From an uncultured Eubacteriales bacterium (lineage in GTDB: Bacteria; Bacillota; Thermincolia; Thermincolales; CAZWUW01): a stretch of DNA of 63,933 bases. Positions 30,949 to 45,022 of this stretch are shown one piece after another; position 1 is the first letter of the stretch, and every line of letters starts with the position of its first letter. The DNA lies in the NCBI GenBank assembly GCA_964636895.1, contig CAZWUW010000003.1, forward strand, positions 1 to 63,933, read 5' to 3'. A model generated the notes under the pieces. That model saw only the letters and a list, made by a program, of their open reading frames with translations, searched no databases and had not been told where the DNA came from. The translations under genes were made by a program, and so were the position numbers.

Positions 30949-30952
30949 AGGA

Positions 30953-30980
30953 ATATAGGGTGGATTAATCCACCCTATAT
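30953..30980 (-). other. Perfect palindrome/hairpin between pstS and pstC.
   Basis: ATATAGGGTGGAT-TA-ATCCACCCTATAT. Probably an intra-operon attenuator or mRNA-stabilising hairpin. Confidence 0.5.
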
Positions 30981-31015
30981 ATTATAACTTATTTTCGCTG
31001 CCTTGAAAGACTTTT

Positions 31016-31957: not shown

Positions 31958-32032
31958 ATTATATATCAACTTTGTAAAATGCCAATTAGCAACCTGTTAA
32001 CTTTGTATTAATATATGTTAAGAAATTGTTAA
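31958..32032 (-). promoter_or_regulatory. Pho-box array plus -10 element upstream of pstS-pstC-pstA.
   Basis: Minus strand: TTAACA(32032)-n5-TTAACA-n4-TTAATA-n5-TTAACA-n6-TAATTG-n4-TTTACA(31978-31973)-n9-TATAAT(31963-31958). The hexamers are phased at 10-11 bp, as for B. subtilis PhoP TT(A/T/C)ACA repeats. Confidence 0.6.
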
Positions 32033-32503
32033 CTAGTGCTTGGTGAATCTGTCTGCCACTTTGCTGGCTGCATAGGACCAGGGTTTGACGCGGGCTAGAA
32101 AACCGCTGGTGTTAATCATGGCAACTACTTGTTGAATTAATTCTCTGGTTTTGCCCTGCTCTCCTACATCGAGATGAATTTCTACCGTCACCCGGGAACT
32201 GTAAGCGGTAAAATAATCTATTATGCTTCCGGCTAACTCCAGGCTCTGGGACGCTTCGGAAAAAATTCTTTGCTTAAAGGAAGTCAAATTCTTTTGCCGC
32301 GCCTTGGTATAGTAAAATCGGGCACCTTTGCCTACCCGGTGAATAATAACGGCGGTAACAAAACAAGTCACCTTCCCTGGCTGGGAATCTGTCCCGATGG
32401 TCAGGCGATAACAGTCCTTCGGGTGCGCTACTATAAAATCCGTAATATCCCGCAGCATTTCCTCCATACTAAGTCGTCCTTTGGTGGGGCTGATAAAATC
32501 CAT
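32033..32503 (-). CDS. YkuK/DUF458 family (RNase H-like fold) protein.
   Basis: The ORF track extends to 32512 (GTG). I prefer the ATG at 32503 (GGAGAGGAG 8 nt upstream). Contains ...YRLTIGTDSQ...VTAVIIHRVGKGARFYY... Confidence 0.6.
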   Translation of the reverse strand: MDFISPTKGRLSMEEMLRDITDFIVAHPKDCYRLTIGTDSQPGKVTCFVTAVIIHRVGKGARFYYTKARQKNLTSFKQRIFSEASQSLELAGSIIDYFTAYSSRVTVEIHLDVGEQGKTRELIQQVVAMINTSGFLARVKPWSYAASKVADRFTKH

Positions 32504-32674
32504 TATCAACACTCCTCTCCCATGCCCTTGCTATAAGTTTGTGCATTTATGCAAACAAATAGACACTGGTCTCTTGCCAGCGTCTATTCACAGTTATCAG
32601 TAAGAAAACACAGGCCTGTATGCAAAGTCATGTTGCTTCCCCCTCACTTTTCTTCTTATTTTATACTATTCAAT

Positions 32675-32721
32675 TTAACACTGTATTAATTCCGTGTTAA
32701 ATATTATAAAACCTTTATAAT
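32675..32721 (+). promoter_or_regulatory. Possible Pho-box-like repeats plus -10 upstream of the glycosyltransferase operon.
   Basis: TTAACA(32675)-n5-TTAATT(32686)-n5-TTAAAT(32697)-n13-TATAAT(32716). The region is AT-rich, so chance matches are likely. Confidence 0.3.
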
Positions 32722-32854
32722 TCCACAGTTTTATTCATGCTTTCTTTTAATCTCAGCCTTTACATGAAAATGATATTGTACTATTATATTAAAAGGAAAC
32801 AAAACCTAGCCTTTACTATATTGTGAAACTTTGTACAAACTAGGAGGAGCCGTT

Positions 32855-34024
32855 TTGTCATTATTGGAGCAGGAAAACATAGTTTGTATTTCTTCAATAG
32901 ACTGGGATCCTATTTGGACCAGGAAACAGCAGGTAATGTCCCGGTTACCCAAATCAAATAAAATCCTGTATGTCGAACCACCCATTACATTGATTTCCCC
33001 GTTCAAAGATCCGTCACTGTGGGGAAAATGGCGTCTATGGCGGCAGGGCATCCGTAAATTGCAAGAAAACCTTTATCTGTGGTCACCACCTGTAATTTTA
33101 CCTTTTGGCAATAAATACAGGTTGATTAACCGTTTAAATCAGTGGTGGCTGGCCCTTTTTTTGCGCCGGATAATGAAAAATCTAGACATGGAAAACAACA
33201 TATTATGGACCTACATGCCAAATTCCGCCGATATTACCGATTTGCTTGAACATAAACTGCTGGTGTATGATTGTGTGGATGAACACTCGGAATACACCGG
33301 GCTAATCAATAAACAGGTTATGTTGCACATGGAGCAGGATTTGTTGCGGCAGTGCGACTTTACTTTTGTTACCGCTGCCGGCCTCTATAATACAAAAAAA
33401 GATTTTGCCAGGCGAATGTATTATTTACCTAATGCTGCCAATGTTGAGCTGTTTATGCAGGCCCAGAACCCGGCAACCCTTATTCCTGCCGAGATGGCGG
33501 CAATAAACAGACCTGTTATCGGTTTTGTGGGCGTGATCCAGGACTGGGTAGACCTTGACTTGATTGCCCGGGTTGCAAAGAGTTACCCTGCCTGGTCAGT
33601 GGTAATGATTGGCCCTGTAGGCGTGGGCATAGATATATCCGGATTGCAAAAATTACCGAATGTACACTTGCTCGGACGCAAAGATGTAAAAGAACTTCCC
33701 GGTTACATTAAAGCTTTCGACGTATGTCTGAATGCTTTTAAATTAAATGAATTAACGGACAAAGTAAGCCCCCTCAAGTTTTATGAATATCTAGCCGCCG
33801 GCAAACCCATTGTCACTGTTAATATGCCCGGTGTCCGCGAATTTGCGGATATTGTGGAAATTGCCAATACTGCAGATGAATTTGTATCTGCAGTTGCCAG
33901 GGCTGTTCAGGAGGAAACCCCTGATAAACTGGCGGCACGTCTAAAAAGGGCGCAGGAAAACTCATGGGAAAGCCGGGTGCAATTCATGATGCAAAAAATA
34001 AAGGAGGATGTTAATGAGTACTAA
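32855..34024 (+). CDS. Family-1 (GT-B) glycosyltransferase, TuaH-like N-terminus.
   Basis: The ORF track starts at 32831. I prefer the TTG at 32855 (AGGAGGAGCCGTT-TTG). Contains IVCISSIDWDPIWTRKQQVMSRL..ILYVEPP and a C-terminal E..LKFYEYLAAGKPIV. Confidence 0.8.
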   Translation: MSLLEQENIVCISSIDWDPIWTRKQQVMSRLPKSNKILYVEPPITLISPFKDPSLWGKWRLWRQGIRKLQENLYLWSPPVILPFGNKYRLINRLNQWWLALFLRRIMKNLDMENNILWTYMPNSADITDLLEHKLLVYDCVDEHSEYTGLINKQVMLHMEQDLLRQCDFTFVTAAGLYNTKKDFARRMYYLPNAANVELFMQAQNPATLIPAEMAAINRPVIGFVGVIQDWVDLDLIARVAKSYPAWSVVMIGPVGVGIDISGLQKLPNVHLLGRKDVKELPGYIKAFDVCLNAFKLNELTDKVSPLKFYEYLAAGKPIVTVNMPGVREFADIVEIANTADEFVSAVARAVQEETPDKLAARLKRAQENSWESRVQFMMQKIKEDVNEY

Positions 34025-35330
34025 TATGAAAGCTAATGGTAACAAGGTTGCTGTTTTTGGTTTGGGTTTTGTTGGACTGCCGCTGGCGCTGAGTTATGCC
34101 CTCAGGGGATGTGAAGTGGTCGGGGTAGATATTGACCCACGGCTTGTGCATGAACTGAACAGCGGCATCACCCACCACCTGGAGCGTTATCATGACACAC
34201 CTATTCAGCAAGTGCTCGCTGATGAACTGCGGAGTGGCCGTTTCCGGGCTACTACCGATGCCGGTGAAGCCATGAAAATATGTGACAGCTTTATCATGAC
34301 TGTCGGTATTCCGGTAAATGACGGACAGCACGACTTCAGCCATGTAGAGTCCTGTGCCCGGGTAATTGCCGGTGGTCTAAAGCCTGATGACCTGGTAATT
34401 GTCCGCAGCACACTGATTCCCGGTATGACGCGTAATTTTATCCAGCCGATTCTGGAAGAAAGTGGCCTGACTGCCGGCAAAGATTTTTATTTAGCTTACT
34501 CTTCTGAACGGATTGCCGAAGGCAAGGCTTTTGATGAATTTGAGAATATGCCTACTTTAATTAGCGGCATAAATGAAGCCAGCAGAAAAAGGGCTAAGGC
34601 TTTGATGAGCATTGTGACAAAAGCGGATTTAGTGGAAGCCTCTTCTTTTGAGGTTGTTGAGTCCGCCAAAGTTATGGAAAATGTTTCCCGTGATGTTAAT
34701 ATTGCCATGGTACAGGAATTTGCCCGTTTCACCAAGGCGTTGGGTATCGATATCTTTGAAGTAATCAAGGTTGCTAATACTCATAAACGGGTGCAACTGC
34801 TTTTTCCGGGCCCGGGAGTTGGTGGATACTGCCTACCTAATGCTATTCATTACCTGTCGCCAAAAGGTGATGAATTAGGCATTCCTTTAAAATTATTAAA
34901 ATTAGCCCGTAAGATAAATGAAGATGTCCCGGCTTTTGTTGCCGGACTGATTATGAAAAATTTGCCGGTGCCGCCCGCTAAAGCTAAAATTGCCGTACTG
35001 GGGATTGCCATGAAAGATTATTCCAGTGACGACAGGATAAGTCCGGCTCTTGACGTAATTGAACTTCTGCTTAAGTCAGGTATTGAAGTGGCGGCTTTTG
35101 ACCCGGCAGTGCCGACCAGGCACGATTTTTCCGTTGCTTCCCTGGAAGAAGCGGTTGAAGGTGCTCACGGTATTTTGGTCCTGGCCAGACAGGACGGCAT
35201 TGGCTATAATAATTTCAAGCTGTTTAATTCTGTCATGAGTAAAAACGGCACTCCTTTTATTGTAGACACCAAAAACTATTATGACCGAAATGAAGTGGAG
35301 GACGCCGGTATTAAATTAGAAACTTTATAA
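34014..35330 (+). CDS. Nucleotide-sugar (UDP-sugar) 6-dehydrogenase.
   Basis: VAVFGLGFVGLPLA Rossmann motif and catalytic Cys in GPGVGGYCLPN. The start overlaps the GT stop. ATG at 34014 has AAGGAGG 6 nt upstream. Confidence 0.85.
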   Translation: MSTNMKANGNKVAVFGLGFVGLPLALSYALRGCEVVGVDIDPRLVHELNSGITHHLERYHDTPIQQVLADELRSGRFRATTDAGEAMKICDSFIMTVGIPVNDGQHDFSHVESCARVIAGGLKPDDLVIVRSTLIPGMTRNFIQPILEESGLTAGKDFYLAYSSERIAEGKAFDEFENMPTLISGINEASRKRAKALMSIVTKADLVEASSFEVVESAKVMENVSRDVNIAMVQEFARFTKALGIDIFEVIKVANTHKRVQLLFPGPGVGGYCLPNAIHYLSPKGDELGIPLKLLKLARKINEDVPAFVAGLIMKNLPVPPAKAKIAVLGIAMKDYSSDDRISPALDVIELLLKSGIEVAAFDPAVPTRHDFSVASLEEAVEGAHGILVLARQDGIGYNNFKLFNSVMSKNGTPFIVDTKNYYDRNEVEDAGIKLETL

Positions 35331-35373
35331 AAACAAGCAAAAAAGCTCATCTTTTGAGCTTTTTTGCTTGTTT
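35331..35373 (+). terminator. Rho-independent terminator.
   Basis: 19-bp stem AAACAAGCAAAAAAGCTCA/TGAGCTTTTTTGCTTGTTT immediately after the dehydrogenase stop. Confidence 0.75.
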
Positions 35374-35386
35374 GGGAGGCCAGCCA

Positions 35387-36682
35387 ATGAAAAAGTATAC
35401 TGAATTAACGCTTGAACAACGTTTTGCCTTGCTGAGTTTTTTTGTTATTGCTGTGCTTGGCAGTTTGCTGGCCATAGGTAATTACTGGTTTAGCAGGAAC
35501 CAAATGCTGAATGCCTCAGGTGGGTACGCGGAAATATGGGTTAACTCCATAGTCAGATATCACCTACAGGAGTCGGATTTTAATCAGAAAATTTCAGCCA
35601 GCCGTTATGAAGAACTTAACCGGTTTATGCAAAACAATATACAGAGTAAGGATGTCAAACGTATAAAAATATGGGACCTTAACGGACGGGTGGTTTATTC
35701 CAATGAACCTAGTATTATCGGTAAAACCTTTAAAATTGGCGAAGGTTTGCATTCGGCCCTGAAAGGACAGGTATCCGCTGAGTTTGTGCCCCTTCTGGAG
35801 AATGAACATCAAACGGAAAGCGGACTGGCAGCCAGGCTGCTGGAAATCTATGCGCCAATTTTTTCCCAGGACCAAAAAATTATTGGTGCCTTTGAGCTGT
35901 ACATCAGTGACCGGGTACTAATAACCCATGTTAACAAGAACCGGTTGATGACACTGCTGTTAATTGCCTTCAGTCTCATATTGTTCTATTTTTCTCTGAT
36001 TGGTGTTTTCAGAAAGGCCTCCAAAACAATTGACACTCAACATAAAAGAATTGACACACTAAGTTCTCATCTGGATGATGCTTTATCATGGCAGGAAAAG
36101 AGTTATGTCGGCATCATCAAAGCTTTGCTGACCGCCCTTGATGCCAAGGATAGTTATACTGCCGGACATGCGATCAGGGTAACCGATTTTTCATTAAAAA
36201 TTGGCCAGTCCATGAAACTTTCACCAGAGCGTTTAAAATTACTGGAAGAAGCCGCTCTCTTCCATGATATCGGCAAAATAGGGATCCCCGAACAAGTGCT
36301 GAACAAACCCGCCAAATACAGTGAGGCGGAACGTATTGTTATCCAAAATCACTCTACTATCGGCTATGATATTATTAATTCCATACACTATTTTTCAGAA
36401 CATGCCAAAATTGTGCGGCATCACCATGAATGGTATGACGGCACCGGTTATCCGGATGGTCTTAAAGGGGCCGACATACCTCTGGAAGCTAGGATTCTGG
36501 CGGTTGCCGATACTTTTGATGCCCTGATCACAAACCGGCCATACAAACCGGGACTATCAACCGAGTTGGCGCTGGATATACTCCAGAACGAAAAAAATAC
36601 CCATCTAGACCCGGCAATAGTTGACCTTTTCATAAAATGCGAAGATGTGTTTTTTACACCCGGGCAACCCTTTACCAGATGA
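35387..36682 (+). CDS. Membrane-anchored HD-GYP domain protein (putative c-di-GMP phosphodiesterase) with an extracytoplasmic sensor region.
   Basis: ATG at 35387 after GGGAGG. Two TM segments flank a loop of about 150 aa. Contains HAIRV, HDIGKIGIP and HHEWYDGTGYPDGL. Confidence 0.85.
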   Translation: MKKYTELTLEQRFALLSFFVIAVLGSLLAIGNYWFSRNQMLNASGGYAEIWVNSIVRYHLQESDFNQKISASRYEELNRFMQNNIQSKDVKRIKIWDLNGRVVYSNEPSIIGKTFKIGEGLHSALKGQVSAEFVPLLENEHQTESGLAARLLEIYAPIFSQDQKIIGAFELYISDRVLITHVNKNRLMTLLLIAFSLILFYFSLIGVFRKASKTIDTQHKRIDTLSSHLDDALSWQEKSYVGIIKALLTALDAKDSYTAGHAIRVTDFSLKIGQSMKLSPERLKLLEEAALFHDIGKIGIPEQVLNKPAKYSEAERIVIQNHSTIGYDIINSIHYFSEHAKIVRHHHEWYDGTGYPDGLKGADIPLEARILAVADTFDALITNRPYKPGLSTELALDILQNEKNTHLDPAIVDLFIKCEDVFFTPGQPFTR

Positions 36683-36875
36683 CGACTGGTAAAAATGGGC
36701 GGTGTTTTTAAAACCTTCATCTGCCCAGTTTACGCCTTGTTCAAGTTGAGATAGAAATTTATCCACTATTCTGGCATAGACCGGCATCCCATCATTTTCC
36801 AAAATATCCCTGGCAAGTAAGTTGCAAAAATTCTCCGGCGACCGTTGAACTTGCCCCCTTTTCATTCGAAATTTG

Positions 36876-37772
36876 CTATTTTATTGGAATGAAGCCTTGC
36901 TCTTCTACAATTTGCTGTCCTTCCCGGCTCAAAGTAAAGTCTACAAATGATTTTATGTGCCCCAGAGGTTCACCGGCGGTATATAAATATAAAGAACGGG
37001 AAATGGGATAATCTCCCGATTTTACATTTTCATTACTGGGGTCTAACGCCTCTGCACCTGGTTTCAAGGCGATTTTTAGGATTTTTACATCTTTATTGGC
37101 TTTTGCATCACCAATGCCCACATAGCCGATAGCAGTTTTTTGTTTTGCTGTTTCTTCTGTTTCAGCCCGGGAAGTTTGAACAAATAATGTATTGGCACTA
37201 AATGGTGCGTCCTTCAGTACATGTTCCTTAAAATAGTCATGTGTACCTGAATTGGCTTCACGGGAAATGATTTTGATAGCTTCGTTTTTACCACCAACCT
37301 CTTGCCAGTTGATTATCTTGCCGGTAAAAATATCTCTTAATTGCTCTATACTTAATTGTGTTACCGGATTATCCTTATTTACTACAATAGCCAGACCATC
37401 CAGGGCTATAATAAATTCCTTCGGTTCAATACCTTTACTTATCGCTTCTTCAATTTCTGCGGGCTTCATTTTCCTGGAAGCATTGGCAATATCGGTGGTA
37501 CCCACGGTTAAAGCCTTGATACCGGTTCCCGAACCTCCGCCCACGACTGCCAATTGCGTATCCCGATTTTTCTCCATAAAAGCTTCCGCCATGGCTTTAC
37601 TTAGATAAACCATGGTATCGGAGCCTTTGATATTAATTACTTTATTATCAACCGTAATTTCGTTATTTTCTGCAACAGGTTTTTCCCCTGTTTTTTTTGT
37701 GCCAGTACAGCCTGTTAATAAGCCGGAAATTAACAAAACCATAATTCCTATGACAATCCTTTTTTTCATCAT
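36876..37772 (-). CDS. PstS-family phosphate-binding lipoprotein (third paralog), coupled to the chemoreceptor gene.
   Basis: 298 aa. Lipobox LLTGCTG, then GSDTM, GGGSGTG and SREANSGTHDYF. Its RBS (GGAGG) lies inside the last codons of the upstream mcp. Confidence 0.85.
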   Translation of the reverse strand: MMKKRIVIGIMVLLISGLLTGCTGTKKTGEKPVAENNEITVDNKVINIKGSDTMVYLSKAMAEAFMEKNRDTQLAVVGGGSGTGIKALTVGTTDIANASRKMKPAEIEEAISKGIEPKEFIIALDGLAIVVNKDNPVTQLSIEQLRDIFTGKIINWQEVGGKNEAIKIISREANSGTHDYFKEHVLKDAPFSANTLFVQTSRAETEETAKQKTAIGYVGIGDAKANKDVKILKIALKPGAEALDPSNENVKSGDYPISRSLYLYTAGEPLGHIKSFVDFTLSREGQQIVEEQGFIPIK

Positions 37773-37774
37773 TC

Positions 37775-39856
37775 TTAAACCTCCATTTTCTCTTGCTCCT
37801 CACAACTCTCTTCTTCGACTAACCTGAACTTAGATACCATCCCGGCCAGTTCCTGAGCCACATTCATCAACAGGTGGGAGGTATCATTAATTTCGGCCAG
37901 CGCATTGGTCTGGTGATGCGTACTCTGAGCAATGTATTCTGCTCCCTTGTTAGTCTCCGCAGTAATCAGACTAATGCTTTCCACCGCCTGGGCTATTTCC
38001 TCTACCGAATGACTTTGGCCCTCTACGCTGGCCATAATATTTTCTATGATGCCGTAATTTTTGTTAATCTCCGTAATAATTTTCTGCAGACTAACCACAG
38101 TTTGGTCAGCAAGAACCATGCCGCTTTTTACAGAAACAGTTACCTGATCCATATCATTAAGCAATATTTCTTCTCTTTTACGAATATTTTCAATAATTGT
38201 ATTTATCTCTTTGGCTGCTGAGCTGCTTTCCTCGGCTAAAATCTTGATACGGTCCGCTACAACGCCGAAGCTCCGGCCAAATTCCCCCGCCTGGGCCGCC
38301 TCTATGGCCGCATTTAAAGCCAACAGGTTAGTCTCCTGAGCCACTGTCTTGATCATTTTTACAAAGTTCATAATCTGCTCGATGGCAACGTAAAGTTCCT
38401 TTAGCGAATTAGCTGTTTCCAATGTGGATTTTTCAATTTCCTGCAGTGACCCGGCCGCATTTTCCACCGATTCCTCACCGGTGACTGCCAGTTCAGTAGT
38501 CAGGCGGCTGTTTTCAACGGCCTCAGTACTGGCTGTATTTATACGGCGCACTTCTTCAACAATCTGATTCATCACCACCCCTAATTCATGAATGCTGGCG
38601 TTGTTAGCTTCGGCTCCGGCCGAAACTTCCTGGGTAACACCCGATATTTGTACCATATCATCTTTAATCTGCGCTACCGAATTATTAAGGTTTGCGGCCA
38701 TGGTATCTACCAGTTTTGCGGTATCCCGCATCTTTCTGATCATCATATTTTTCTGTTCTATCATGGTGTTGTATATGCCGGCCAGTTCCTCAAACTCATC
38801 TCCGGTTTTTATATCGGCCTTTACTGTAAAATCATTGTCTTCTACCTTTTTCAACAAATGCATAATCTGAGTCAGGGCAGCTGTGAACCTGCGAACCAAT
38901 AAAACTCCAATTAATAGGGAAAATATACCGCTGGCCGCCATTGTCATCAGAGACATAAACCTGATTCTGTTCGCAGCAGCAAAATATTCTTCCTTAGCAA
39001 CAAAAACCGTTACTACCCACCTGGATTTTGGTACTGTTTTATAAAAAACCATATAGCTTTCCTGACCCAGTTGAATTTCTCTAATGCCCTGAATCTTGCT
39101 GGCATCCGTTTTTATATCGGCAAGAATTTCCCGCATCACGGGATACTCTGTTGTTGTTAACATTTTAACCTGTTTTGGATGATAAAGCACGATTCCATTG
39201 TTATTAACCATATAACCAAACCCGCGCTGACCAAAAGACCTTTGATACAAGTGCCTGGTAAAATAGCTTAAATCGTAGGTAATAACCACTACTCCGGTTA
39301 CCAGTCCGGTCTGCTCCATGACAGGATAAGACATTGATATGACCGGCAGTTTAATATTTGTTTTACTGTAATTGGATAACATTGCCCCACCAATGGCAAA
39401 GCGCCGCTCCTGAATGGCTTTAGTAAAATAGTCTTGTTTGCGCAAATCCAAACCCTGGTATTTGCCATGCCAACTGTCGGCGACCACCCGGCCGTTTTTG
39501 GCCACTACAAACATGTTTTCATAGATACCGCCGGCTTTCACATAGTTATCACGAAGTGCACCGGTAACTTCACGAAGATTATCAAGGTTATTGATTTTAC
39601 CGGTATTATTATAATCATTAAGTATTTTTCTGAATGAAGGTGTAGTGGCCAGGTTTTTTAACATGCCTTCCGTATCTTCAACTGAAGTTTCCATGGCATT
39701 GGCCATGCCTTTAACAATTTCCTGCAGCCGACTTTCTTCGCTTTGACGAATGGCATTATAGGTTTCTATATATGCAAAACCACCCAGCAGTATTATGGGT
39801 ATTACAGATGTTATTAAAAATAAAATGCTCAGCTTATATTTAATACTAATTTTCAT
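37775..39856 (-). CDS. Methyl-accepting chemotaxis protein with a double-Cache-like sensor and HAMP.
   Basis: ATG at 39856 after GAGGGAG. TM, a periplasmic domain of about 270 aa, TM, HAMP, then the signalling domain ...LLALNAAIEAAQAGEFGRSFGVVADRIKILAEES... Confidence 0.9.
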   Translation of the reverse strand: MKISIKYKLSILFLITSVIPIILLGGFAYIETYNAIRQSEESRLQEIVKGMANAMETSVEDTEGMLKNLATTPSFRKILNDYNNTGKINNLDNLREVTGALRDNYVKAGGIYENMFVVAKNGRVVADSWHGKYQGLDLRKQDYFTKAIQERRFAIGGAMLSNYSKTNIKLPVISMSYPVMEQTGLVTGVVVITYDLSYFTRHLYQRSFGQRGFGYMVNNNGIVLYHPKQVKMLTTTEYPVMREILADIKTDASKIQGIREIQLGQESYMVFYKTVPKSRWVVTVFVAKEEYFAAANRIRFMSLMTMAASGIFSLLIGVLLVRRFTAALTQIMHLLKKVEDNDFTVKADIKTGDEFEELAGIYNTMIEQKNMMIRKMRDTAKLVDTMAANLNNSVAQIKDDMVQISGVTQEVSAGAEANNASIHELGVVMNQIVEEVRRINTASTEAVENSRLTTELAVTGEESVENAAGSLQEIEKSTLETANSLKELYVAIEQIMNFVKMIKTVAQETNLLALNAAIEAAQAGEFGRSFGVVADRIKILAEESSSAAKEINTIIENIRKREEILLNDMDQVTVSVKSGMVLADQTVVSLQKIITEINKNYGIIENIMASVEGQSHSVEEIAQAVESISLITAETNKGAEYIAQSTHHQTNALAEINDTSHLLMNVAQELAGMVSKFRLVEEESCEEQEKMEV

Positions 39857-39905
39857 TAGCTTCTCCCTCATTAAATCATTTTATGATGTGCTTTTCTACG
39901 CATTC

Positions 39906-39933
39906 TTTAAAGAGGTTGTTAACCGGGTGTTAA
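39906..39933 (-). promoter_or_regulatory. Pho-box-like phased hexamers upstream of mcp.
   Basis: Minus strand: TTAACA(39933-39928)-n5-TTAACA(39922-39917)-n5-TTTAAA(39911-39906). About 50 nt upstream of the mcp ATG. Confidence 0.5.
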
Positions 39934-40028
39934 TATTTGCTTAAAATTTATGGCGTTAAAAAGTCTATGAAAAAAGGTCATCACTTGAAATAATCCACTA
40001 AGACTAATTTCAAGTTTTGACCTTTGTA

Positions 40029-40742
40029 TTATGACGATGTGTCCCGGAACTTGTAGCCTATTCCCCGAATGGTCTCTATGTAGACTGGGTTACCCGGATC
40101 CGGCTCAACTTTTAAACGCAAATGCCGAATATGTACATCAACGGTTCTGGTATCATGACTATAATCAAACCCCCAAATCTGATCCAGCAGAAAGTCCCTG
40201 GTGAAAACCTTGCCAGGGTTAGTGGCCATCAACTTCAGCAATTCATACTCTTTCAGCGTAAATTCCCGTTTCCTGTCGTTAATCCAGACTTCAAACTGGT
40301 CAGGTTTGATAGTAATATGACCAAATACAATTTCCGACTGTTTATCCCATTTACTAACTGCCGGAGTAAATTTCCTCAAGCGTGCTTTTACTCTGGCTAT
40401 AAGCTCCCGGGGACTAAATGGTTTAGTCATATAGTCATCGGCACCAATTTCCAAACCCAGCACCTTATCCAGTTCGTCAGTTTTAGCAGTAAGCATAATT
40501 ATAGGAATTCCTGTGGTTTTGTCATTTTTCCGCAGTTGACGGCATACTTCCAATCCGTCTATACCTGGTAACATAACGTCAAGTATGATTAAATCCGGTT
40601 TTTCTATTTCCGCCATTTTCAGGGCAGTAATTCCCTCAGTAGACACCTTTACCTGAAAACCTTCTTTCTCGAGATTAAATCTGATTAACTCAAGAATATG
40701 GATTTCATCATCTACCACTAATATACCGGGCATCCTACTCAC
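40029..40742 (-). CDS. OmpR/PhoB-family response regulator (PhoP/PhoB-like).
   Basis: 237 aa. Receiver domain DDE...D(54)VMLPG...K, then a winged-helix C-terminus ...IETIRGIGYKFR. Confidence 0.9.
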   Translation of the reverse strand: MSRMPGILVVDDEIHILELIRFNLEKEGFQVKVSTEGITALKMAEIEKPDLIILDVMLPGIDGLEVCRQLRKNDKTTGIPIIMLTAKTDELDKVLGLEIGADDYMTKPFSPRELIARVKARLRKFTPAVSKWDKQSEIVFGHITIKPDQFEVWINDRKREFTLKEYELLKLMATNPGKVFTRDFLLDQIWGFDYSHDTRTVDVHIRHLRLKVEPDPGNPVYIETIRGIGYKFRDTSS

Positions 40743-40764: not shown

Positions 40765-40818
40765 AATTTACATTACCAATGTAAAAGCTGCGTTGGCGAC
40801 TGGTTAATTCTATGTTAA
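40765..40818 (-). promoter_or_regulatory. Pho-box-like hexamers plus -10 upstream of the response regulator.
   Basis: Minus strand: TTAACA(40818-40813)-n5-TTAACC(40807-40802)-n16-TTTACA(40785-40780)-n9-TAAATT(40770-40765). The hexamers are in an 11-bp register. Confidence 0.5.
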
Positions 40819-40851: not shown

Positions 40852-41625
40852 TTATCCGAAATTGCCTACTAGATAATCTTCAGTTGTCTTTACCCGGGGA
40901 TTGACCAGAATTTCATCGGCCTTGCCATGCTCCACCAACTCACCGTTCAGGAAAAAGGCGATGCGATCAGATATTCTCCGCGCCTGGCCTAAATTATGGG
41001 TAACCACCACTACAGTATAAGTGCTTTTTAATTCATTGAGCAGCGCCTCAATTTTGGAAGTTGAAATTGGATCCAGACTGGCACATGGCTCGTCTAACAA
41101 AATAATCTCCGGTTTTACAGCCAGTACCCGGGCGATACAAAGTCGCTGCTGTTGTCCGCCGGATAATGAAAACCCGGAACTATGTATTTTATCCTTGACC
41201 TCATCCCAAAGATTGGCCTGCCGCAGACTTTTTTCAATAATCTCTGTTAATTCTATTTTTGTAACGTCAGGATTACTCTCTCTGACACCAAAGGCAACAT
41301 TTTCAAAAATTGTCATTTGAAACGGGTTTGGATGCTGAAAGACCATACCTACCTTGCGGCGCAGAACCACCGGATCAACTCTGGTATCGTATATATTGTG
41401 GCCGTCCAAAGTAATATTTCCCGACAACTTAAAAGTTGGCACTAAGTCACACAATCTGTTAAGACATCTAAGCAGAGTAGTTTTTCCACAGCCGGACGGA
41501 CCAATTAAGGCCAAAATTTCTCTTTTAAAAATATCAAGACTAACATCTTTGAGTACCTGTTGCTTGCCATACCAAGCATTGACATTATTTACGGACATGT
41601 TCAACTGATTTGCATTGTTTATCAT
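40852..41625 (-). CDS. pstB: Phosphate ABC transporter ATP-binding protein.
   Basis: Walker A GPSGCGKTT, signature LSGGQQQRLCIAR, Walker B ILLDEP. Confidence 0.95.
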   Translation of the reverse strand: MINNANQLNMSVNNVNAWYGKQQVLKDVSLDIFKREILALIGPSGCGKTTLLRCLNRLCDLVPTFKLSGNITLDGHNIYDTRVDPVVLRRKVGMVFQHPNPFQMTIFENVAFGVRESNPDVTKIELTEIIEKSLRQANLWDEVKDKIHSSGFSLSGGQQQRLCIARVLAVKPEIILLDEPCASLDPISTSKIEALLNELKSTYTVVVVTHNLGQARRISDRIAFFLNGELVEHGKADEILVNPRVKTTEDYLVGNFG

Positions 41626-42554
41626 TGAGACACCTCCTTGGTAGTTTTACGGCTGATTAAGTCAACTAAAAAATTAATTGCCAAAATTATCAGGATTAGC
41701 ACTACACTTGCCCCAAAAGCCTTGATGGCAGAATTTCCCTCTCCCGCGGGAGAAGAGAAATAAATATATGTAGTCAGCGTACTACCTGTATTTTGGAGGG
41801 TGCTCAGCCAGTTTTGCGGCTGCCACCAGGGTTGATTACCGGTCATATTCATAGAACCGCCCAGGGTTAGCCATACAATAGCAGTATCGCCGGCAATCCG
41901 GCCGATACCAAGTACTGTCCCGGTTACGATGCCGGGCCGAGCCACCGGCAATACTACCCGGAGGATTGTCCGCCATTTGCTGGCACCGAGAGACATGGCC
42001 GCTTCCCGGTAAGAATTGGGTACGGCTTTGATAGCTTCTTCCGCAGATTTAATAATAAATGGCAGCACCATAATAGCCATGGTTATGCCGGCAACAAAAA
42101 ATGACCGGCCAAAGGCCTTGGCATTTTCAACCCCTTCGGCATACGTACTCAAAAAACCCATACCGGGGAGCGTAAAAATAGCCAAGCCAAATATTGCATA
42201 AATTATTGTCGGTACACCGGCTAACACTTCAATTCCGGAGCGTAGTAAGGCAATCATGCGGGTATTTGGTGCGTATTCAGCCAGATATATGGCCGTTGCC
42301 ACGGCCCATGGCAAGGCCACAATAATCCCAATGACAATAAGCATAATTGTACCAACAATTGGGGTCCGGATTCCGCCGCTTTGATTCTGGTCCATACTGG
42401 GGGCCGGATCCTCGAATAAAAATGCCGGATTAATGGCTTGCAACCCATTTGCAAACAAATAAACAACTATTGCCAAGCATATAATAATCGCTAAAATTCC
42501 GGCCAGCCAACAAAATGCCGGGCCCGGCGTAATTCTTCCTTTAGACTGCAGCAT
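41622..42554 (-). CDS. pstA: Phosphate ABC transporter permease PstA (second operon).
   Basis: The ORF track extends to 42590. I prefer the ATG at 42554 (GGGGG 8 nt upstream). Contains YREAAMSLGASKWRTILRVVLP. Confidence 0.9.
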   Translation of the reverse strand: MLQSKGRITPGPAFCWLAGILAIIICLAIVVYLFANGLQAINPAFLFEDPAPSMDQNQSGGIRTPIVGTIMLIVIGIIVALPWAVATAIYLAEYAPNTRMIALLRSGIEVLAGVPTIIYAIFGLAIFTLPGMGFLSTYAEGVENAKAFGRSFFVAGITMAIMVLPFIIKSAEEAIKAVPNSYREAAMSLGASKWRTILRVVLPVARPGIVTGTVLGIGRIAGDTAIVWLTLGGSMNMTGNQPWWQPQNWLSTLQNTGSTLTTYIYFSSPAGEGNSAIKAFGASVVLILIILAINFLVDLISRKTTKEVSQ

Positions 42555-43587
42555 CAGACGAACCCCCTTTCGAGACACTACGGGCAACAAGTTTGGCCGA
42601 AATACTCAATAGCATACTGCTAAGCAATAAAAGTGTCCCCAGTGTAAAAAGCGCCGACTCTGTAGAAATGACACTCATGCCTTCACCGTTATCTACAATT
42701 GTTGACGCCATGGTACGTAAAGGTTCCAGGAAAAATACCAGACCATGCCTGATATCCGGTAGAAAGGCCACACTGCCGCTAACCATGGATAAAGCAATGG
42801 CTTCCCCGACTGCTCTGCCGGCGGCCAAAATTGCACCGGCAACAATCCCCGGCCGGGCAACTGGCAGCATTATTTTTATGATTACACGCCAGGGCGTAAC
42901 ACCCAGGGCCAGTGCCCCTTCTTTAAAAGAATTAGGTACTGCCCGCAGGGCATCAGCAGCCAAAGCAATGAATATTGGCATAATCATAATTGCCAGGACT
43001 ATTATGCCTACCAACAGACCGGTGCCGTCCATAGCAAACTGCTGAATATATTTTAAAGCCAACTGATCAGAAACAAAGGTTTGACGAATAAAGGGAACGA
43101 TTACCAAAAGACCAATAAGACCATATATTACCGATGGTATCGAAGCCAGCAGACGTACTGTTGATTCCATTGGCTTCCTGAGCCATAACGGCGCCAGTTC
43201 AACCAGAAAGATAGCACAGCCAAGCCCCAGTGGCACAGCAATAAAAAGTGCACCAAAAGTGGTAAGAAAAGTCCCTGCAATAATTGGCAGAGCCCCAAAT
43301 TTCCAACTGGGAGTAGTGTTGCCTGCCAGCCAAGCGGCAGTGAAATCCTCGTCCCAGCCTTTTCCGCTAATGAATGATAAACCATTTTGCTGAAGTACAG
43401 GTAACGCTTTTTGGGTCACGAACATGAATATAACTAATATAAGTACGCTACTTAAAATTGTGGCAATAAGGAGGGAATTTTCCGCGAGCTTTTCTGACCA
43501 ATAGCGAATTTTTTGATGCTGCTTCCGTCCCTGTACAGTTAAATCCAGTGCCTGTACTTCGGGTCGGATGGAATCCATCTGGTTCAT
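42541..43587 (-). CDS. pstC: Phosphate ABC transporter permease PstC (second operon).
   Basis: The ORF track extends to 43602. I prefer the ATG at 43587 (GAGGGGTGG upstream). Contains FKEGALALGVTPWRVIIKIMLP. Confidence 0.9.
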   Translation of the reverse strand: MNQMDSIRPEVQALDLTVQGRKQHQKIRYWSEKLAENSLLIATILSSVLILVIFMFVTQKALPVLQQNGLSFISGKGWDEDFTAAWLAGNTTPSWKFGALPIIAGTFLTTFGALFIAVPLGLGCAIFLVELAPLWLRKPMESTVRLLASIPSVIYGLIGLLVIVPFIRQTFVSDQLALKYIQQFAMDGTGLLVGIIVLAIMIMPIFIALAADALRAVPNSFKEGALALGVTPWRVIIKIMLPVARPGIVAGAILAAGRAVGEAIALSMVSGSVAFLPDIRHGLVFFLEPLRTMASTIVDNGEGMSVISTESALFTLGTLLLLSSMLLSISAKLVARSVSKGGSSDAAV

Positions 43588-43609
43588 TAAACCACCCCTC
43601 ACAAATATT

Positions 43610-43663
43610 AAAAAAAGGAATGCCGCCGCCAGTGTAACTGCTGACTGGCGGCAATTGCATTCC
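43610..43663 (-). terminator. Strong intra-operon terminator/attenuator between pstS and pstC.
   Basis: Minus strand: GGAATGC-aatt-GCCGCCAGT-(loop)-ACTGGCGGC-GGCATTCC followed by TTTTTTT. Confidence 0.7.
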
Positions 43664-43683
43664 AGTCACTGGATTAATTATAA

Positions 43684-44868
43684 TTAATCTGTTTCAACCG
43701 GGATATATTCATTTGCCACTATCTTCTGACCGGCAGGACTCTGAATATATTCTACAAAGGTTTTGGCCAGGCCATCAGCCTCACCTTTGGTAGCCATAAG
43801 GAACGGTCTGACAACTTTGTATGTATCATTTTTTGCGTTTGCAAAACTAGGTACAACACCGTCAAGTGTAGGTGCATTTACGGTTTTATCAATATAACCT
43901 AAAGAGATATACCCGATGGCGTTTTTATTGGAGGCAACAGCCTGGCGAACCAGCCCATTGGAAGCATGGGTCTTGGCAGTTACGGCGACTTTGCCACCTT
44001 TACCCAGGAAATGTTCAATAAAGTATTCACCGGTACCGGAAGCCGCATCACGCACATTCAGGATTATAGGTGCATCGGTGCCGCCAAGTTCTTTCCAACT
44101 GGTGATTTCCCCTTTGAAAACCTTTTTTACCTGTTCGGTGGTAAGGTTTTTAATAGGGTTATCAGGGTTTACAACCACAGCAATGCCGTCATTGGCAATA
44201 ATGTATGCTTTCAGCTTTTCAGCTTCTTCGGGTTTCAGAAAACGGGAAGAGTTACCGATATTAACCTTGCCTTCCGTTGCGTCTTTGATGCCTACACTGG
44301 AACCACCGCCGGTGACGGTAATTTGAACATCAGGATTTTTTTTCTTGAAGGCATCGGCCAGTTCCTGAGCCAATGGTTGAACGGAAGTAGAACCACTGAT
44401 TTTCAGTTCACCAGAATGTCCGGCAAACTGGTCGACAGTCACGGTTTTGGATGCAGCATCCCATTTAACGTTACAATTAAAAGCTTCACCGATGAAACGA
44501 AGGGGAACCAGGGTCTTACCGTTTTTAATCTTAGCCGGAACATCGAGTGTTACTGAATTGCCGTTTACTAAGGCTGTTTTTTCTCCGACTACCAGTTTTA
44601 CAGTAATGTTTTTCTTACTGGCGGTAATAGTCTTGGTTTGACCTTGCCAATCCAATTTGGCACCAAGAGCCTCAAAAATTTCTCTGATTGGTACCAGCGT
44701 GCGGCCATTTTCAATCTGTGGGGCAACAGTCATTTTTAAATTCGTATCATTAACAACAACCTTTATACCGGCAGCTTCAACCGGACCGACATTAACAAGA
44801 CCAAAGCCAAAAACTGTAAATAACATAGAAGCAATGATAAGCCAGCTAATCTTTTTCAAAACATTCAC
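43684..44868 (-). CDS. pstS: PstS phosphate-binding protein fused to an N-terminal copper-amine-oxidase-N-like domain.
   Basis: 394 aa. The signal peptide ends VEA-AG and there is no lipobox. Residues about 35-145 match the Cu-amine-oxidase N-terminal pattern (NGRTLVPIREIFEALGAKLDW...NGKTLVPLRFIGEAFNCNVKWD). PstS motifs follow (GSTSVQPL, GGGSSVG, RDAASGTGEYF). Confidence 0.85.
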   Translation of the reverse strand: MNVLKKISWLIIASMLFTVFGFGLVNVGPVEAAGIKVVVNDTNLKMTVAPQIENGRTLVPIREIFEALGAKLDWQGQTKTITASKKNITVKLVVGEKTALVNGNSVTLDVPAKIKNGKTLVPLRFIGEAFNCNVKWDAASKTVTVDQFAGHSGELKISGSTSVQPLAQELADAFKKKNPDVQITVTGGGSSVGIKDATEGKVNIGNSSRFLKPEEAEKLKAYIIANDGIAVVVNPDNPIKNLTTEQVKKVFKGEITSWKELGGTDAPIILNVRDAASGTGEYFIEHFLGKGGKVAVTAKTHASNGLVRQAVASNKNAIGYISLGYIDKTVNAPTLDGVVPSFANAKNDTYKVVRPFLMATKGEADGLAKTFVEYIQSPAGQKIVANEYIPVETD

Positions 44869-44969: not shown

Positions 44970-45022
44970 ATAATAACGGTAATTTGTAAAATCTAACTTA
45001 CGTTATATTAAATCCTTGTTAA
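44970..45022 (-). promoter_or_regulatory. Pho-box array plus -10 upstream of the second pst operon.
   Basis: Minus strand: TTAACA(45022-45017)-n5-TTAATA-n5-TAAGTT-n4-TTTACA(44990-44985)-n9-TATTAT(44975-44970). Confidence 0.55.

What the first reader, a model, noticed from the sequence alone, without database searches (positions are those of the whole stretch)
36876..39933. Pho-box-controlled chemoreceptor translationally coupled to a PstS paralog: candidate binding-protein-mediated phosphate taxis
Seen: a double-Cache MCP (37775..39856) is followed after 2 nt by a PstS-family lipoprotein (36876..37772). The PstS RBS (GGAGG) lies inside the last mcp codons (AAA ATG GAG GTT TAA ga ATG). Two perfect TTAACA hexamers plus TTTAAA at 11-bp spacing precede the mcp. 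The PstS paralog keeps the phosphate-binding signature segments (GSDT, GGGSGTG, SREANSGT), but no permease or ATPase is attached to it. Established: in Pseudomonas aeruginosa, low-phosphate taxis through CtpL requires PstS as an indirect ligand-presenting protein. Inference: this is a dedicated sensor pair (PstS-like protein docking on the Cache domain) for Pi chemotaxis in a Gram-positive anaerobe. I am not aware that this has been described.
Basis: partly seen in the sequence, partly recalled or inferred. Interest (0 to 1): 0.65.

Follow-up and report, generated by a model that had tools for sequence, protein, structure and literature searches.

The report
Chemoreceptor paired with dedicated PstS
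A phosphate-starvation-controlled two-gene operon encodes a chemotaxis receptor and its own phosphate-binding lipoprotein, and this pairing recurs in 13 of 14 related loci from anaerobic Bacillota, so it is a strong but untested candidate for binding-protein-mediated phosphate taxis in Gram-positive bacteria.

Summary
A dCache_1-HAMP-MCP gene (37775..39856, minus strand) is followed after 2 nt by a PstS-family lipoprotein gene (36876..37772). The pstS ribosome-binding site lies in the last mcp codons. Four TT(A/T)A-type hexamers at exact 11-bp spacing precede mcp.

One point needs correcting. The pair sits inside a phosphate-starvation island. pstS1-pstC-pstA-pstB and a PhoP-like regulator lie directly upstream, and a second pstS3-pstC-pstA cluster lies 5 kb downstream.

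Comparative evidence is strong:
- The sensor domain belongs to a rare, sharply bounded family: 3 clusters at E<=1e-30 among 1.84 billion representatives.
- In 13 of 14 informative loci a pstS gene follows the mcp directly, although the flanking genes differ.
- In the window's clade the pstS is a dedicated paralog, tightly coupled (-50 to +47 nt), and monophyletic.
- In Alkaliphilus, Alkalithermobacter and Acetoanaerobium the mcp sits just upstream of the canonical pstSCAB.
- Pho boxes are conserved upstream of mcp.
- All linked PstS proteins keep the nine phosphate ligands.

Best reading: Pi-loaded PstS2 docks on the dCache ectodomain, as PstS does on CtpL (confidence about 0.52). Docking itself is inferred. 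Direct sensing by the receptor remains a live rival. I rate it a new variant of a known kind.

The parts
39967..40025 (-). Intrinsic terminator after the PhoP-like regulator gene. It isolates mcp-pstS2 as a separate transcription unit.
   Evidence: RNA fold -26.3 kcal/mol, z -5.8, 0 of 200 shuffles as good, followed by U6.
39906..39944 (-). Pho-box array: TTAAGC-N5-TTAACA-N5-TTAACA-N5-TTTAAA at 11-bp periodicity.
   Evidence: Sequence. The same motif lies upstream of pstS1, pstS3 and the regulator. It is conserved 80-115 nt upstream of mcp in orthologous loci. It matches the B. subtilis PHO box definition (PMC11870197).
39878..39898 (-). Candidate -10 elements: TAGAAA (39898..39893), within a GTAGAAAA block shared with L002 and L005, and TAAAAT (39883..39878). 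The transcription start is not determined.
   Evidence: Sequence reading and comparison of upstream regions. This is inference.
39863..39869 (-). mcp ribosome-binding site GAGGGAG.
   Evidence: Sequence.
37775..39856 (-). Methyl-accepting chemotaxis protein, 693 aa. TM1 is about aa 9-29. dCache_1 is about aa 34-284 (39005..39757). TM2 is about aa 300-322. HAMP is at 38756..38902 and the MCP signalling domain at 37964..38512.
   Evidence: Pfam, ortholog alignment.
37780..37784 (-). pstS2 ribosome-binding site GGAGG, inside the last mcp codons.
   Evidence: Sequence. Equivalent sites occur in orthologs with gene overlaps of 7 to 50 nt.
36876..37772 (-). PstS2, a dedicated phosphate-binding lipoprotein of 298 aa (lipobox LTGC, Cys22). 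Predicted Pi ligands: S51, D52, T53, S81, S99, R171, S175, G176, T177.
   Evidence: TIGR02136 at 270.8 bits. Alignment to 4Q8R/4GD5/4PQJ/4OMB. Ligand list from PMC5381212. Conservation in 13 linked PstS.
40029..40742 (-). OmpR/PhoB-family response regulator, the presumed PhoP and presumed activator of the Pho boxes. Its own Pho box lies at 40802..40818.
   Evidence: Pfam and NCBIfam, motif hit. The same gene lies next to the pair in L005 and L014.
40852..44868 (-). pstS1 (Cu_amine_oxidN1-PstS fusion)-pstC-pstA-pstB, the high-affinity phosphate transporter of the same island. A Pho box lies at 45006..45022.
   Evidence: NCBIfam equivalog hits above cutoff for PstC, PstA and PstB, Pfam, motif.

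Best explanation
mcp-pstS2 is a two-gene operon of the phosphate-starvation (Pho) regulon. Proposed steps:
1. When phosphate is scarce, the phosphorylated PhoP-like regulator binds the four 11-bp-spaced TTAACA-type boxes and switches the operon on.
2. Because the pstS2 start site lies in the end of mcp, the two proteins are made together.
3. PstS2 is tethered to the outer face of the membrane by its lipid anchor and captures phosphate with the standard PstS binding site.
4. The closed, phosphate-loaded form docks on the double-Cache ectodomain of the receptor.
5. The signal passes through HAMP to the conserved CheA/CheW-binding tip, and the cell swims up phosphate gradients at concentrations too low for direct sensing.

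In the window's lineage the receptor-serving PstS has become a separate paralog, and transport uses PstS1 and PstS3. In Alkaliphilus, Alkalithermobacter and Acetoanaerobium one PstS would serve both transporter and receptor, as in Pseudomonas aeruginosa.

Shown here: gene anatomy, the separate transcription unit, Pho boxes, conservation of the pair, and intact phosphate ligands. Inferred: PhoP binding, phosphate binding, docking, and the motility output.
For: - Anatomy and coupling.
- Own promoter: a terminator follows the regulator gene. In L005 an EAL gene on the opposite strand separates the regulator from mcp.
- Pho boxes: the motif recurs upstream of pstS1, pstS3, the regulator and mcp and is conserved upstream of mcp in 10 other distinct loci.
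- Rare, bounded sensor family: only 3 representatives at E<=1e-30 among 1.84e9, followed by a drop to 27% identity.
- Look-ups from PstS2 homologs: 9 of 11 had this mcp directly upstream.
- Sensor-based scan of 185,579 species genomes: 6 loci. Five have pstS directly downstream and the sixth sits next to a PhoP-like regulator and phn genes.
- Flanking genes differ in nearly every locus while the pair is kept.
- Dedicated PstS2 proteins form one clade, separate from the transporter PstS of the same genomes. Two context predictions made from the tree were confirmed, as was one negative.
- Gap between mcp and pstS is -50 to +47 nt in 8 loci.
- All nine phosphate ligands are kept in all 13 linked PstS.
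- The sensor domain is as conserved as the signalling domain (0.45 vs 0.42 mean identity). PstS divergence tracks the sensor (partial r 0.73) and not the signalling domain (-0.21). This is weak evidence.
- Precedent: Pi-loaded PstS binds CtpL-LBD with KD 3.7 uM (PMC4926252).
Against: - No physical or expression data exist. No RNA runs were found and no complex model could be run.
- Adjacency could be inherited from an ancestral mcp | pstSCAB arrangement in which both units are simply Pho-controlled. In L012, L013 and L015 pstS has its own Pho boxes.
- One family member (L014) has no adjacent pstS.
- No residue distinguishes linked from unlinked GSDT-type PstS, so no docking surface is visible in sequence.
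- A dCache domain normally binds small ligands directly.
- Flagellar or che genes are not in the window, so motility of this organism is unverified.
Confidence: 0.52

Rival explanations
1. Direct sensing plus co-regulation. The dCache domain itself binds phosphate or another phosphorus compound. PstS2 is just one more high-affinity binding protein feeding PstCAB. The genes are neighbours because both belong to the Pho regulon and descend from an ancestral mcp-next-to-pstSCAB arrangement.
For: - In Alkaliphilus, Alkalithermobacter and Acetoanaerobium the mcp and pstSCAB have separate Pho-box promoters.
- L014 keeps the mcp without an adjacent pstS.
- PstS2 is indistinguishable at the ligand site from transporter PstS.
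- dCache domains usually bind small molecules. CtpH senses Pi directly (PMC4926252).
- C. jejuni tlp2 (Cache) is co-transcribed with the Pho gene phoX without any SBP role being shown (PMC6250842).
Against: - This reading does not explain why a monophyletic PstS paralog stays fused to mcp (-50..+47 nt) in 9 distinct loci with otherwise unrelated flanks, while the same genomes keep other PstS copies with their permeases.
- It does not explain why the neighbour is pstS rather than any other Pho gene in 13 of 14 loci.
Confidence: 0.27
2. Same sensor pair, different output. The receptor-PstS2 pair reports phosphate status to a chemosensory pathway that controls something other than swimming direction, such as surface attachment or dispersal through c-di-GMP, or it modulates Pho signalling itself.
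For: - c-di-GMP phosphodiesterase genes lie beside the pair: HD-GYP in the window and L001, EAL in L005, L007, L014, L018 and L019.
- The PhoP-like regulator has no partner kinase in the window.
- No flagellar or che genes are present in the window.
Against: - The protein has a standard MCP signalling domain with the conserved hairpin tip.
- No CheA-like or alternative output gene is linked to it.
- Phosphodiesterase neighbours fit equally well with a 'detach and swim' starvation programme.
Confidence: 0.13
3. The real ligand is arsenate or another oxyanion. PstS2 would act as an analog-binding sensor.
For: - In L008 the pair lies next to a molybdopterin oxidoreductase, an Fe-S subunit and an ArsR-type regulator.
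- Ser-type PstS (C. perfringens PBP-1) discriminates arsenate only about 150-fold (PMC5381212).
Against: - The L008 enzyme scores best as PhsA-like and is far below the ArrA cutoff: 219.8 bits against 1600.
- All other loci have Pho-type neighbours: pst, phoU, PLC, alkaline phosphatase, phn.
- PstS2 carries Asp in the GSDT motif, like the high-affinity P. aeruginosa-type PstS.
Confidence: 0.04

Closest known systems
CtpL-PstS phosphate taxis of Pseudomonas aeruginosa (Rico-Jimenez et al. 2016, PMC4926252)
   Same: In both, a PstS-family (PF12849) phosphate-binding protein is the proposed indirect ligand of a chemoreceptor. Both are expressed under phosphate limitation and serve taxis at low Pi. 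In the Alkaliphilus/Alkalithermobacter relatives the same PstS would serve both transporter and receptor, as in P. aeruginosa.
   Different: The CtpL sensor is an HBM domain, whereas this one is a dCache_1 domain, so the receptors are not homologous in the sensor. ctpL and pstS are unlinked, whereas here the genes are adjacent or overlapping. Here the window's clade has a dedicated PstS paralog. The SBP is a membrane-tethered lipoprotein of a Gram-positive cell, not a free periplasmic protein. CtpL-PstS is proven biochemically, and this pair is not.
BasT/BasB and CosT/CosB of Halobacterium salinarum (cited in PMC8050422)
   Same: A binding-protein gene lies directly beside the transducer gene. 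The SBP has no transporter of its own and serves the receptor. This is the same genetic logic as mcp-pstS2.
   Different: Those systems are archaeal. Their ligands are amino acids and compatible solutes, their SBP families differ (Peripla_BP_6 and others), and the SBP gene lies upstream rather than downstream. No sequence relationship was tested.
Enterobacterial SBP-dependent chemoreception (Tar-MBP, Trg-RBP/GBP, Tap-DppA, Tsr-LsrB)
   Same: A closed, ligand-loaded SBP docks on the receptor ectodomain. The SBP gives high affinity and links taxis to uptake.
   Different: Those receptors have four-helix-bundle sensors. Their SBP genes lie with transporter operons. They are not under Pho control.
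SBP-sensor kinase pairs encoded together (LuxP-LuxQ, TorT-TorS, AioX-AioS, XylFII-LytS)
   Same: A dedicated, transporter-less SBP is encoded next to its membrane receptor. PMC8050422 notes that this is typical for kinases.
   Different: The output is a histidine kinase, not a chemoreceptor.
Bacillus subtilis PhoP PHO box (four TT(A/T/C)ACA units at 11-bp periodicity; Eder et al. 1999 as cited in PMC11870197)
   Same: The hexamer consensus, periodicity and number of units are the same. The position just upstream of a weak -10 without a -35 also matches.
   Different: Binding has not been tested. Only two of the four units are perfect. The cognate regulator scores below the NCBIfam PhoB cutoff (241.6 against 296.2) and has no adjacent PhoR.

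Membership tests
PstS family phosphate-binding protein (TIGR02136 / PF12849) | Profile match above the curated cutoff over the full length | tested here: met
   TIGR02136 at 270.8 bits against 206.6, residues 2-297. PF12849 at E 1.4e-50.
PstS family phosphate-binding protein (TIGR02136 / PF12849) | Phosphate-ligand residues of solved PstS structures are present | tested here: met
   The nine ligands of C. perfringens PBP-1 (S11, T12, S13, S41, S59, R125, S129, G130, T131; PMC5381212) align to S51, D52, T53, S81, S99, R171, S175, G176, T177. Seven positions are identical. Ser13 is Thr. T12 is Asp, as in the GSDT motif of 4PQJ in its printed alignment.
PstS family phosphate-binding protein (TIGR02136 / PF12849) | Export signal or lipoprotein anchor | tested here: met
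   N-terminal hydrophobic segment and lipobox LTGC (Cys22). All 13 linked PstS have a signal sequence ending in G/A-C.
PstS family phosphate-binding protein (TIGR02136 / PF12849) | Encoded in an operon with pstC, pstA and pstB | tested here: not met
   pstS2 follows mcp and is followed by a convergent HD-GYP gene. pstCAB lie 3 kb upstream in a separate unit behind a terminator. So it belongs to the protein family but not to a transporter operon.
PstS family phosphate-binding protein (TIGR02136 / PF12849) | High-affinity phosphate binding | not testable with these tools
   Needs ITC or radioligand binding.
Methyl-accepting chemotaxis protein with dCache_1 sensor | dCache_1 between two TM helices, then HAMP and the MCP signalling domain | tested here: met
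   PF02743 at 105.9 bits (cutoff 45, model positions 1-239 of 240). PF00672 at 33 bits. PF00015 at 122.9 bits. The conserved tip ETNLLALNAAIEAAQAGE is present.
SBP-dependent chemoreceptor system (CtpL-PstS type) | The sensor domain binds the ligand-loaded SBP and not the ligand itself | not testable with these tools
   Only single chains from the window can be folded.
SBP-dependent chemoreceptor system (CtpL-PstS type) | Receptor homologous to CtpL (HBM sensor domain) | tested here: not met
   The sensor is dCache_1. The closest solved structures are Cache domains. It may work like CtpL but is not a member of that family.
SBP-dependent chemoreceptor system (CtpL-PstS type) | Functional link between receptor and PstS, here tested as co-conservation | tested here: met
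   13 of 14 informative loci have pstS directly after this mcp family. 9 of 11 look-ups of PstS2 homologs had the mcp upstream.
Pho regulon member (Bacillus-type PHO box) | Four TT(A/T/C)ACA-like units at 11-bp periodicity upstream of the promoter | tested here: met
   TTAAGC, TTAACA, TTAACA, TTTAAA at 39944, 39933, 39922 and 39911. The same motif lies before pstS1, pstS3 and the regulator. It is conserved in orthologous promoters. Definition from PMC11870197.
Pho regulon member (Bacillus-type PHO box) | Induction by phosphate limitation, and PhoP binding | not testable with these tools
   No RNA runs hold this sequence. EMSA or qRT-PCR is needed.

The most novel reading that the evidence does not exclude
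A small family of double-Cache chemoreceptors in anaerobic Bacillota takes a protein, the phosphate-loaded PstS lipoprotein, as its ligand. It would be the first SBP-dependent chemoreceptor defined in Gram-positive bacteria and the first dCache-PstS pair. It would also be a clear case of subfunctionalisation. In Alkaliphilus-type genomes one PstS serves both transporter and receptor. In the window's lineage a duplicated PstS has become a receptor-only subunit, translationally coupled to the receptor.
Probability: 0.5. Interest if true: 0.72.

Novelty: new variant of a known kind. Interest (0 to 1): 0.6.

Why it matters
SBP-mediated chemoreception is well documented only in a few proteobacteria and one archaeon. 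A recent review states that in bacteria the SBP genes involved lie with transporter genes, which makes such systems hard to predict from genomes. Here the genome itself points to the partner, and this matters for four reasons:
- It gives a ready-made, testable receptor-SBP pair in Firmicutes. Indirect sensing has been suspected there (B. subtilis McpC) but no partner has been identified.
- It would show that a dCache domain, the commonest bacterial extracellular sensor, can read a protein ligand.
- It suggests that phosphate foraging by taxis belongs to the starvation programme of subsurface and alkaline-habitat anaerobes. That programme also includes Pst uptake, phosphate-free wall and lipid synthesis, and c-di-GMP breakdown.
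- Cultured relatives carry the same receptor family next to pstS (Alkaliphilus transvaalensis, Alkalithermobacter paradoxus, Acetoanaerobium pronyense), so experiments are feasible.

Tried and rejected
- Word-index homolog search with the sensor domain alone returned nothing at 1e-5, although close relatives exist. This is a tool limitation.
- Exact look-up of PstS2 found it is not on record. A 99% twin contig was found through the homolog list instead.
- The first GTDB scan, using an alignment of close relatives only, chose poor patterns and found nothing. A second scan with a diverse alignment worked.
- The metagenome scan added one locus, and its contig ends right after mcp, so it is uninformative.
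The single-sequence search was used instead.
- No RNA-seq runs hold the region, so co-transcription and induction could not be read.
- The arsenate-sensing idea, prompted by the L008 context, was rejected. The oxidoreductase there is PhsA-like and far below the ArrA cutoff.
- I looked for residues that distinguish MCP-linked from unlinked PstS, as a possible docking surface. No informative position emerged.
- I looked for a PhoR-type kinase in the window by H-box, N-box and G2 motifs and found none.
- No convincing terminator lies downstream of pstS2 (z 0.76).
- The 86-codon ORF at 36605..36865 just after pstS2 overlaps the convergent HD-GYP gene. It is not called in the twin contig, so I treat it as non-coding.
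Full report
**1. What is in the sequence**

On the minus strand the window carries this row of genes:
- pstS1 (43684..44868). It has a signal peptide and a Cu_amine_oxidN1 domain fused to a PstS domain.
- pstC (42541..43602), pstA (41622..42590) and pstB (40852..41625).
- An OmpR/PhoB-family response regulator (40029..40742).
- The mcp (37775..39856).
- pstS2 (36876..37772).

A convergent HD-GYP gene (35354..36682, plus strand) closes the locus.

The mcp encodes dCache_1 (E 3e-30, full-length model match), HAMP and an MCP signalling domain. The true start is ATG 39856. All orthologs begin there, and GAGGGAG lies 6 nt upstream.

pstS2 starts 2 nt after the mcp stop, and its GGAGG sits inside the last mcp codons. 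PstS2 scores 270.8 bits on TIGR02136 against a cutoff of 206.6 and has a lipobox (LTGC, Cys22).

The one misleading statement is that no permease or ATPase is attached. That holds for the operon but not for the neighbourhood. A complete pstSCAB lies just upstream, and a second cluster, pstS3-pstC2-pstA2 (29198..31882), lies downstream.

**2. A separate, Pho-controlled transcription unit**

Immediately after the regulator gene there is a strong hairpin followed by U6 (40025..39967). It folds at -26.3 kcal/mol with z -5.8, and none of 200 shuffles fold as well. The simple terminator scan missed it because of its long loop.

Downstream of the hairpin lie four hexamers at exact 11-bp spacing: TTAAGC, TTAACA, TTAACA and TTTAAA (39944..39906). 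This matches the Bacillus subtilis PHO box, which is four TT(A/T/C)ACA-like units at 11-bp periodicity (Eder et al. 1999 as cited in PMC11870197).

The pattern TTHACA-N5-TTHACA with at most one mismatch occurs 10 times in the window against 4.1 expected. Only 1 of 100 shuffles reaches 10. More telling is where the hits fall. Six of the ten lie in gene orientation in five intergenic regions:
- upstream of pstS3, where there are four units (31995..32032);
- in the RNaseH-like/tua-like divergent region (32684..32700);
- upstream of mcp;
- upstream of the regulator (40802..40818);
- upstream of pstS1 (45006..45022).

Tandem TTAACA-like repeats also sit 80-115 nt upstream of the mcp start in L002, L005, L007, L008, L009, L011, L012, L014, L015 and L016. 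In L012 three units are perfect. This is phylogenetic footprinting across sensors that are only 32-72% identical. I could not test PhoP binding or induction, because no RNA runs hold this sequence.

**3. Is the pair co-conserved?**

Starting from PstS2 homologs, 11 proteins were looked up without knowing their context. Nine had a dCache_1 MCP directly upstream:
- P0001 in L001, a 99% twin of the window.
- P0003 in L002-L004, P0005 in L005 and P0006 in L006.
- P0008 in L007 and P0010 in L008.
- P0032 in L009, which is Alkalithermobacter paradoxus.
- P0014 in L018.
- P0012 in L019, where only the MCP C-terminus remains at the contig edge (46% identity).

The two exceptions, P0020 in L010 and P0019 in L020, are plain pstSCAB-phoU operons. 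In an NJ tree they fall outside the MCP-linked clades. The contexts of P0014, P0012 and P0019 were predicted from that tree before I looked them up.

Starting from the receptor, a diverse sensor-domain alignment (A3) was scanned over one genome for each of 185,579 species. It found six loci:
- A Bacillota MAG with mcp-pstS overlapping.
- Alkaliphilus transvaalensis, Alkalithermobacter paradoxus and Acetoanaerobium pronyense, each with mcp followed by pstS-pstC-pstA-pstB.
- Alkalithermobacter thermoalcaliphilus, with an mcp remnant followed by intact pstSCAB.
- A Clostridiaceae MAG (L014) with a PhoP-like regulator, then mcp, then GntR, a 5'-nucleotidase, phnG and phnH. It has no adjacent pstS.

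Counting distinct loci, 13 of 14 informative cases have pstS as the next gene.

The flanks are not conserved:
- Upstream neighbours: a regulator, an EAL gene, a sigma factor, a molybdopterin oxidoreductase, pstC/A, or a rhodanese.
- Downstream neighbours: phospholipase C, a glycosyltransferase, PAP2, EAL, HD-GYP, or pstCAB.

So the pair itself is what is kept.

**4. The sensor family is rare and bounded**

An exhaustive phmmer search of the window's sensor domain ran against 1.84 billion cluster representatives. It gave three hits at E<=1e-30, at 68%, 50% and 33% identity, which correspond to the three subclades above. The scores then fall abruptly to generic dCache hits (27% identity, 109 bits). 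The closest solved structures are distant Cache domains (best E 5.5e-10, partial).

Within the family the sensor domain is as conserved as the signalling domain. Mean pairwise identity is 0.45 against 0.42. This suggests strong constraint on the ectodomain.

**5. Two genetic states**

In the window's clade (window, L002, L005, L006, L007, L008, L011, L018) the mcp-pstS distance is -50 to +47 nt, and a good RBS sits in or just after the mcp 3' end. The linked PstS proteins form one clade, distinct from the transporter-associated PstS1 and PstS3 of the same genomes.

In the Alkaliphilus/Alkalithermobacter/Acetoanaerobium group the gap is 124-164 nt. It contains its own Pho boxes and a -10 element, and the linked PstS is the transporter's own.

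The simplest history has three steps:
1. Originally the mcp lay next to pstSCAB.
2. pstS was then duplicated.
3. One copy was retained in an operon with the receptor.

**6. Is PstS2 a phosphate binder?**

The nine phosphate ligands of C. perfringens PBP-1 are S11, T12, S13, S41, S59, R125, S129, G130 and T131 (PMC5381212). They align to S51, D52, T53, S81, S99, R171, S175, G176 and T177. Seven are identical. Ser13 is replaced by Thr. The remaining position is Asp, in the GSDT motif also seen in the alignment to PDB 4PQJ.

All 13 MCP-linked PstS share this pattern, apart from a Ser for the final Thr in L002, and so do two unlinked relatives. Nothing at the sequence level argues for a changed ligand.

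The arsenate idea was raised by the L008 neighbourhood, but it is not supported. The oxidoreductase there is PhsA-like and far below the ArrA cutoff.

**7. Mechanism**

The best-supported model has these steps:
1. Pi limitation leads PhoP~P to bind the four boxes.
2. The receptor and the tethered PstS2 are made together.
3. PstS2 captures Pi.
4. The closed form docks on the dCache ectodomain.
5. The signal passes through HAMP and the conserved tip to CheA.
6. The cell moves up low-level Pi gradients.

Step 1 is predicted from motifs. Step 2 follows from the anatomy. Step 3 follows from family membership. Steps 4 to 6 are inference from conserved gene pairing and from the CtpL-PstS precedent. 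In that system Pi-loaded PstS binds CtpL-LBD with KD 3.7 uM, while CtpL-LBD does not bind Pi (PMC4926252).

One weak extra hint comes from divergence patterns. PstS divergence tracks sensor-domain divergence (r 0.94, partial r 0.73 given the signalling domain). The reverse partial correlation is -0.21. That analysis uses 11 pairs with non-independent distances, so it is suggestive only.

The main rival is direct sensing by the dCache domain, with pstS as a co-regulated neighbour. It is favoured by the separate promoters in the Alkaliphilus group and by L014. It does not explain why a monophyletic, transporter-less PstS stays fused to the receptor in nine distinct loci.

**8. Context**

The island looks like a phosphate-sparing and foraging programme. 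It contains the following:
- Two pst clusters.
- A TuaH-like glycosyltransferase and an NDP-sugar dehydrogenase.
- In relatives: phospholipase C, alkaline phosphatase, PAP2, MGDG synthase and phn genes.
- c-di-GMP phosphodiesterase genes next to the pair in seven distinct loci.

Runs that hold the sequence are rock, sediment and bioreactor metagenomes. The cultured relatives are, from my own knowledge of their descriptions, alkaliphilic anaerobes.

**9. Comparison with known systems, and novelty**

The pair would work like CtpL-PstS, but it is not a member of that family because the sensor is dCache_1 rather than HBM. Its genetic logic, a transporter-less SBP encoded beside its transducer, matches Halobacterium BasT/BasB and CosT/CosB and the SBP-kinase pairs.

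The 2021 review states that bacterial SBP genes serving chemoreceptors are found with transporter genes (PMC8050422). Five full-text searches and the 2023 SBP survey show no mcp-pstS pair and no Pi taxis system in Gram-positive bacteria.

I rate it a new variant of a known kind. My confidence in the full docking model is 0.52. My confidence is about 0.85 for the narrower claim that this is a conserved, Pho-box-preceded and functionally coupled receptor-PstS pair.

Noticed in passing
window 43684..44868 (-); also L001 1463..2638 and L005 1210..2385: The transporter's PstS1 is not a lipoprotein. It has a signal peptide and a Cu_amine_oxidN1 domain (aa 38-145) fused in front of the PstS domain. 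This may be a cell-wall or S-layer anchor. The fusion is conserved in two relatives.
   Followed up: partly
window 29198..31882 (-): The second pst cluster, pstS3-pstC2-pstA2, has four Pho-box units upstream but no pstB. RsmD (28281..28844) and CoaD (27776..28267) follow after a 350-nt gap. It may borrow PstB from the first cluster.
   Followed up: partly
window 40029..40742 (-): The PhoP-like response regulator sits after pstB, where phoU often is. It has its own Pho box and no partner histidine kinase. No H-box, N-box or G2 motif was found in any ORF of the window. The same orphan arrangement occurs in L005 and L014.
   Followed up: partly
window 35354..36682 (+); L005 6014..7669; L007 8910..10154; L014 3374..4615; L018 4742..5590; L019 3600..4841: c-di-GMP phosphodiesterase genes recur beside the mcp-pstS pair. 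The window has an HD-GYP with a membrane sensor N-terminus, and the relatives have EAL genes. This suggests that phosphate starvation also lowers c-di-GMP, a 'detach and swim' response.
   Followed up: no
L016 5905..6700 (Alkalithermobacter thermoalcaliphilus): The mcp is a pseudogene. It has 155 intact N-terminal codons (75% identical to A. paradoxus), then a stop, an internal deletion of about 1.5 kb and an out-of-frame fragment. The downstream pstSCAB is intact.
   Followed up: yes
window 32831..35330 (+) and 32033..32512 (-); L002 3182..9500: The surroundings look like a phosphate-sparing island. In the window there is a TuaH-like glycosyltransferase, an NDP-sugar dehydrogenase and an RNaseH-like PF04308 gene with a Pho box between them. 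Relatives carry Zn-dependent phospholipase C, alkaline phosphatase, PAP2 and MGDG synthase.
   Followed up: partly
L008 3203..5742: In one metagenomic relative the pair lies directly after a PhsA-like molybdopterin oxidoreductase, an Fe-S subunit and ArsR- and MerR-type regulators. The substrate is unknown, and the enzyme does not match ArrA at the curated cutoff.
   Followed up: partly
window 36605..36865 (-): An 86-codon ORF starts 10 nt after the pstS2 stop and overlaps the 3' end of the convergent HD-GYP gene. It is not called in the 99% twin contig and is probably not a gene.
   Followed up: no
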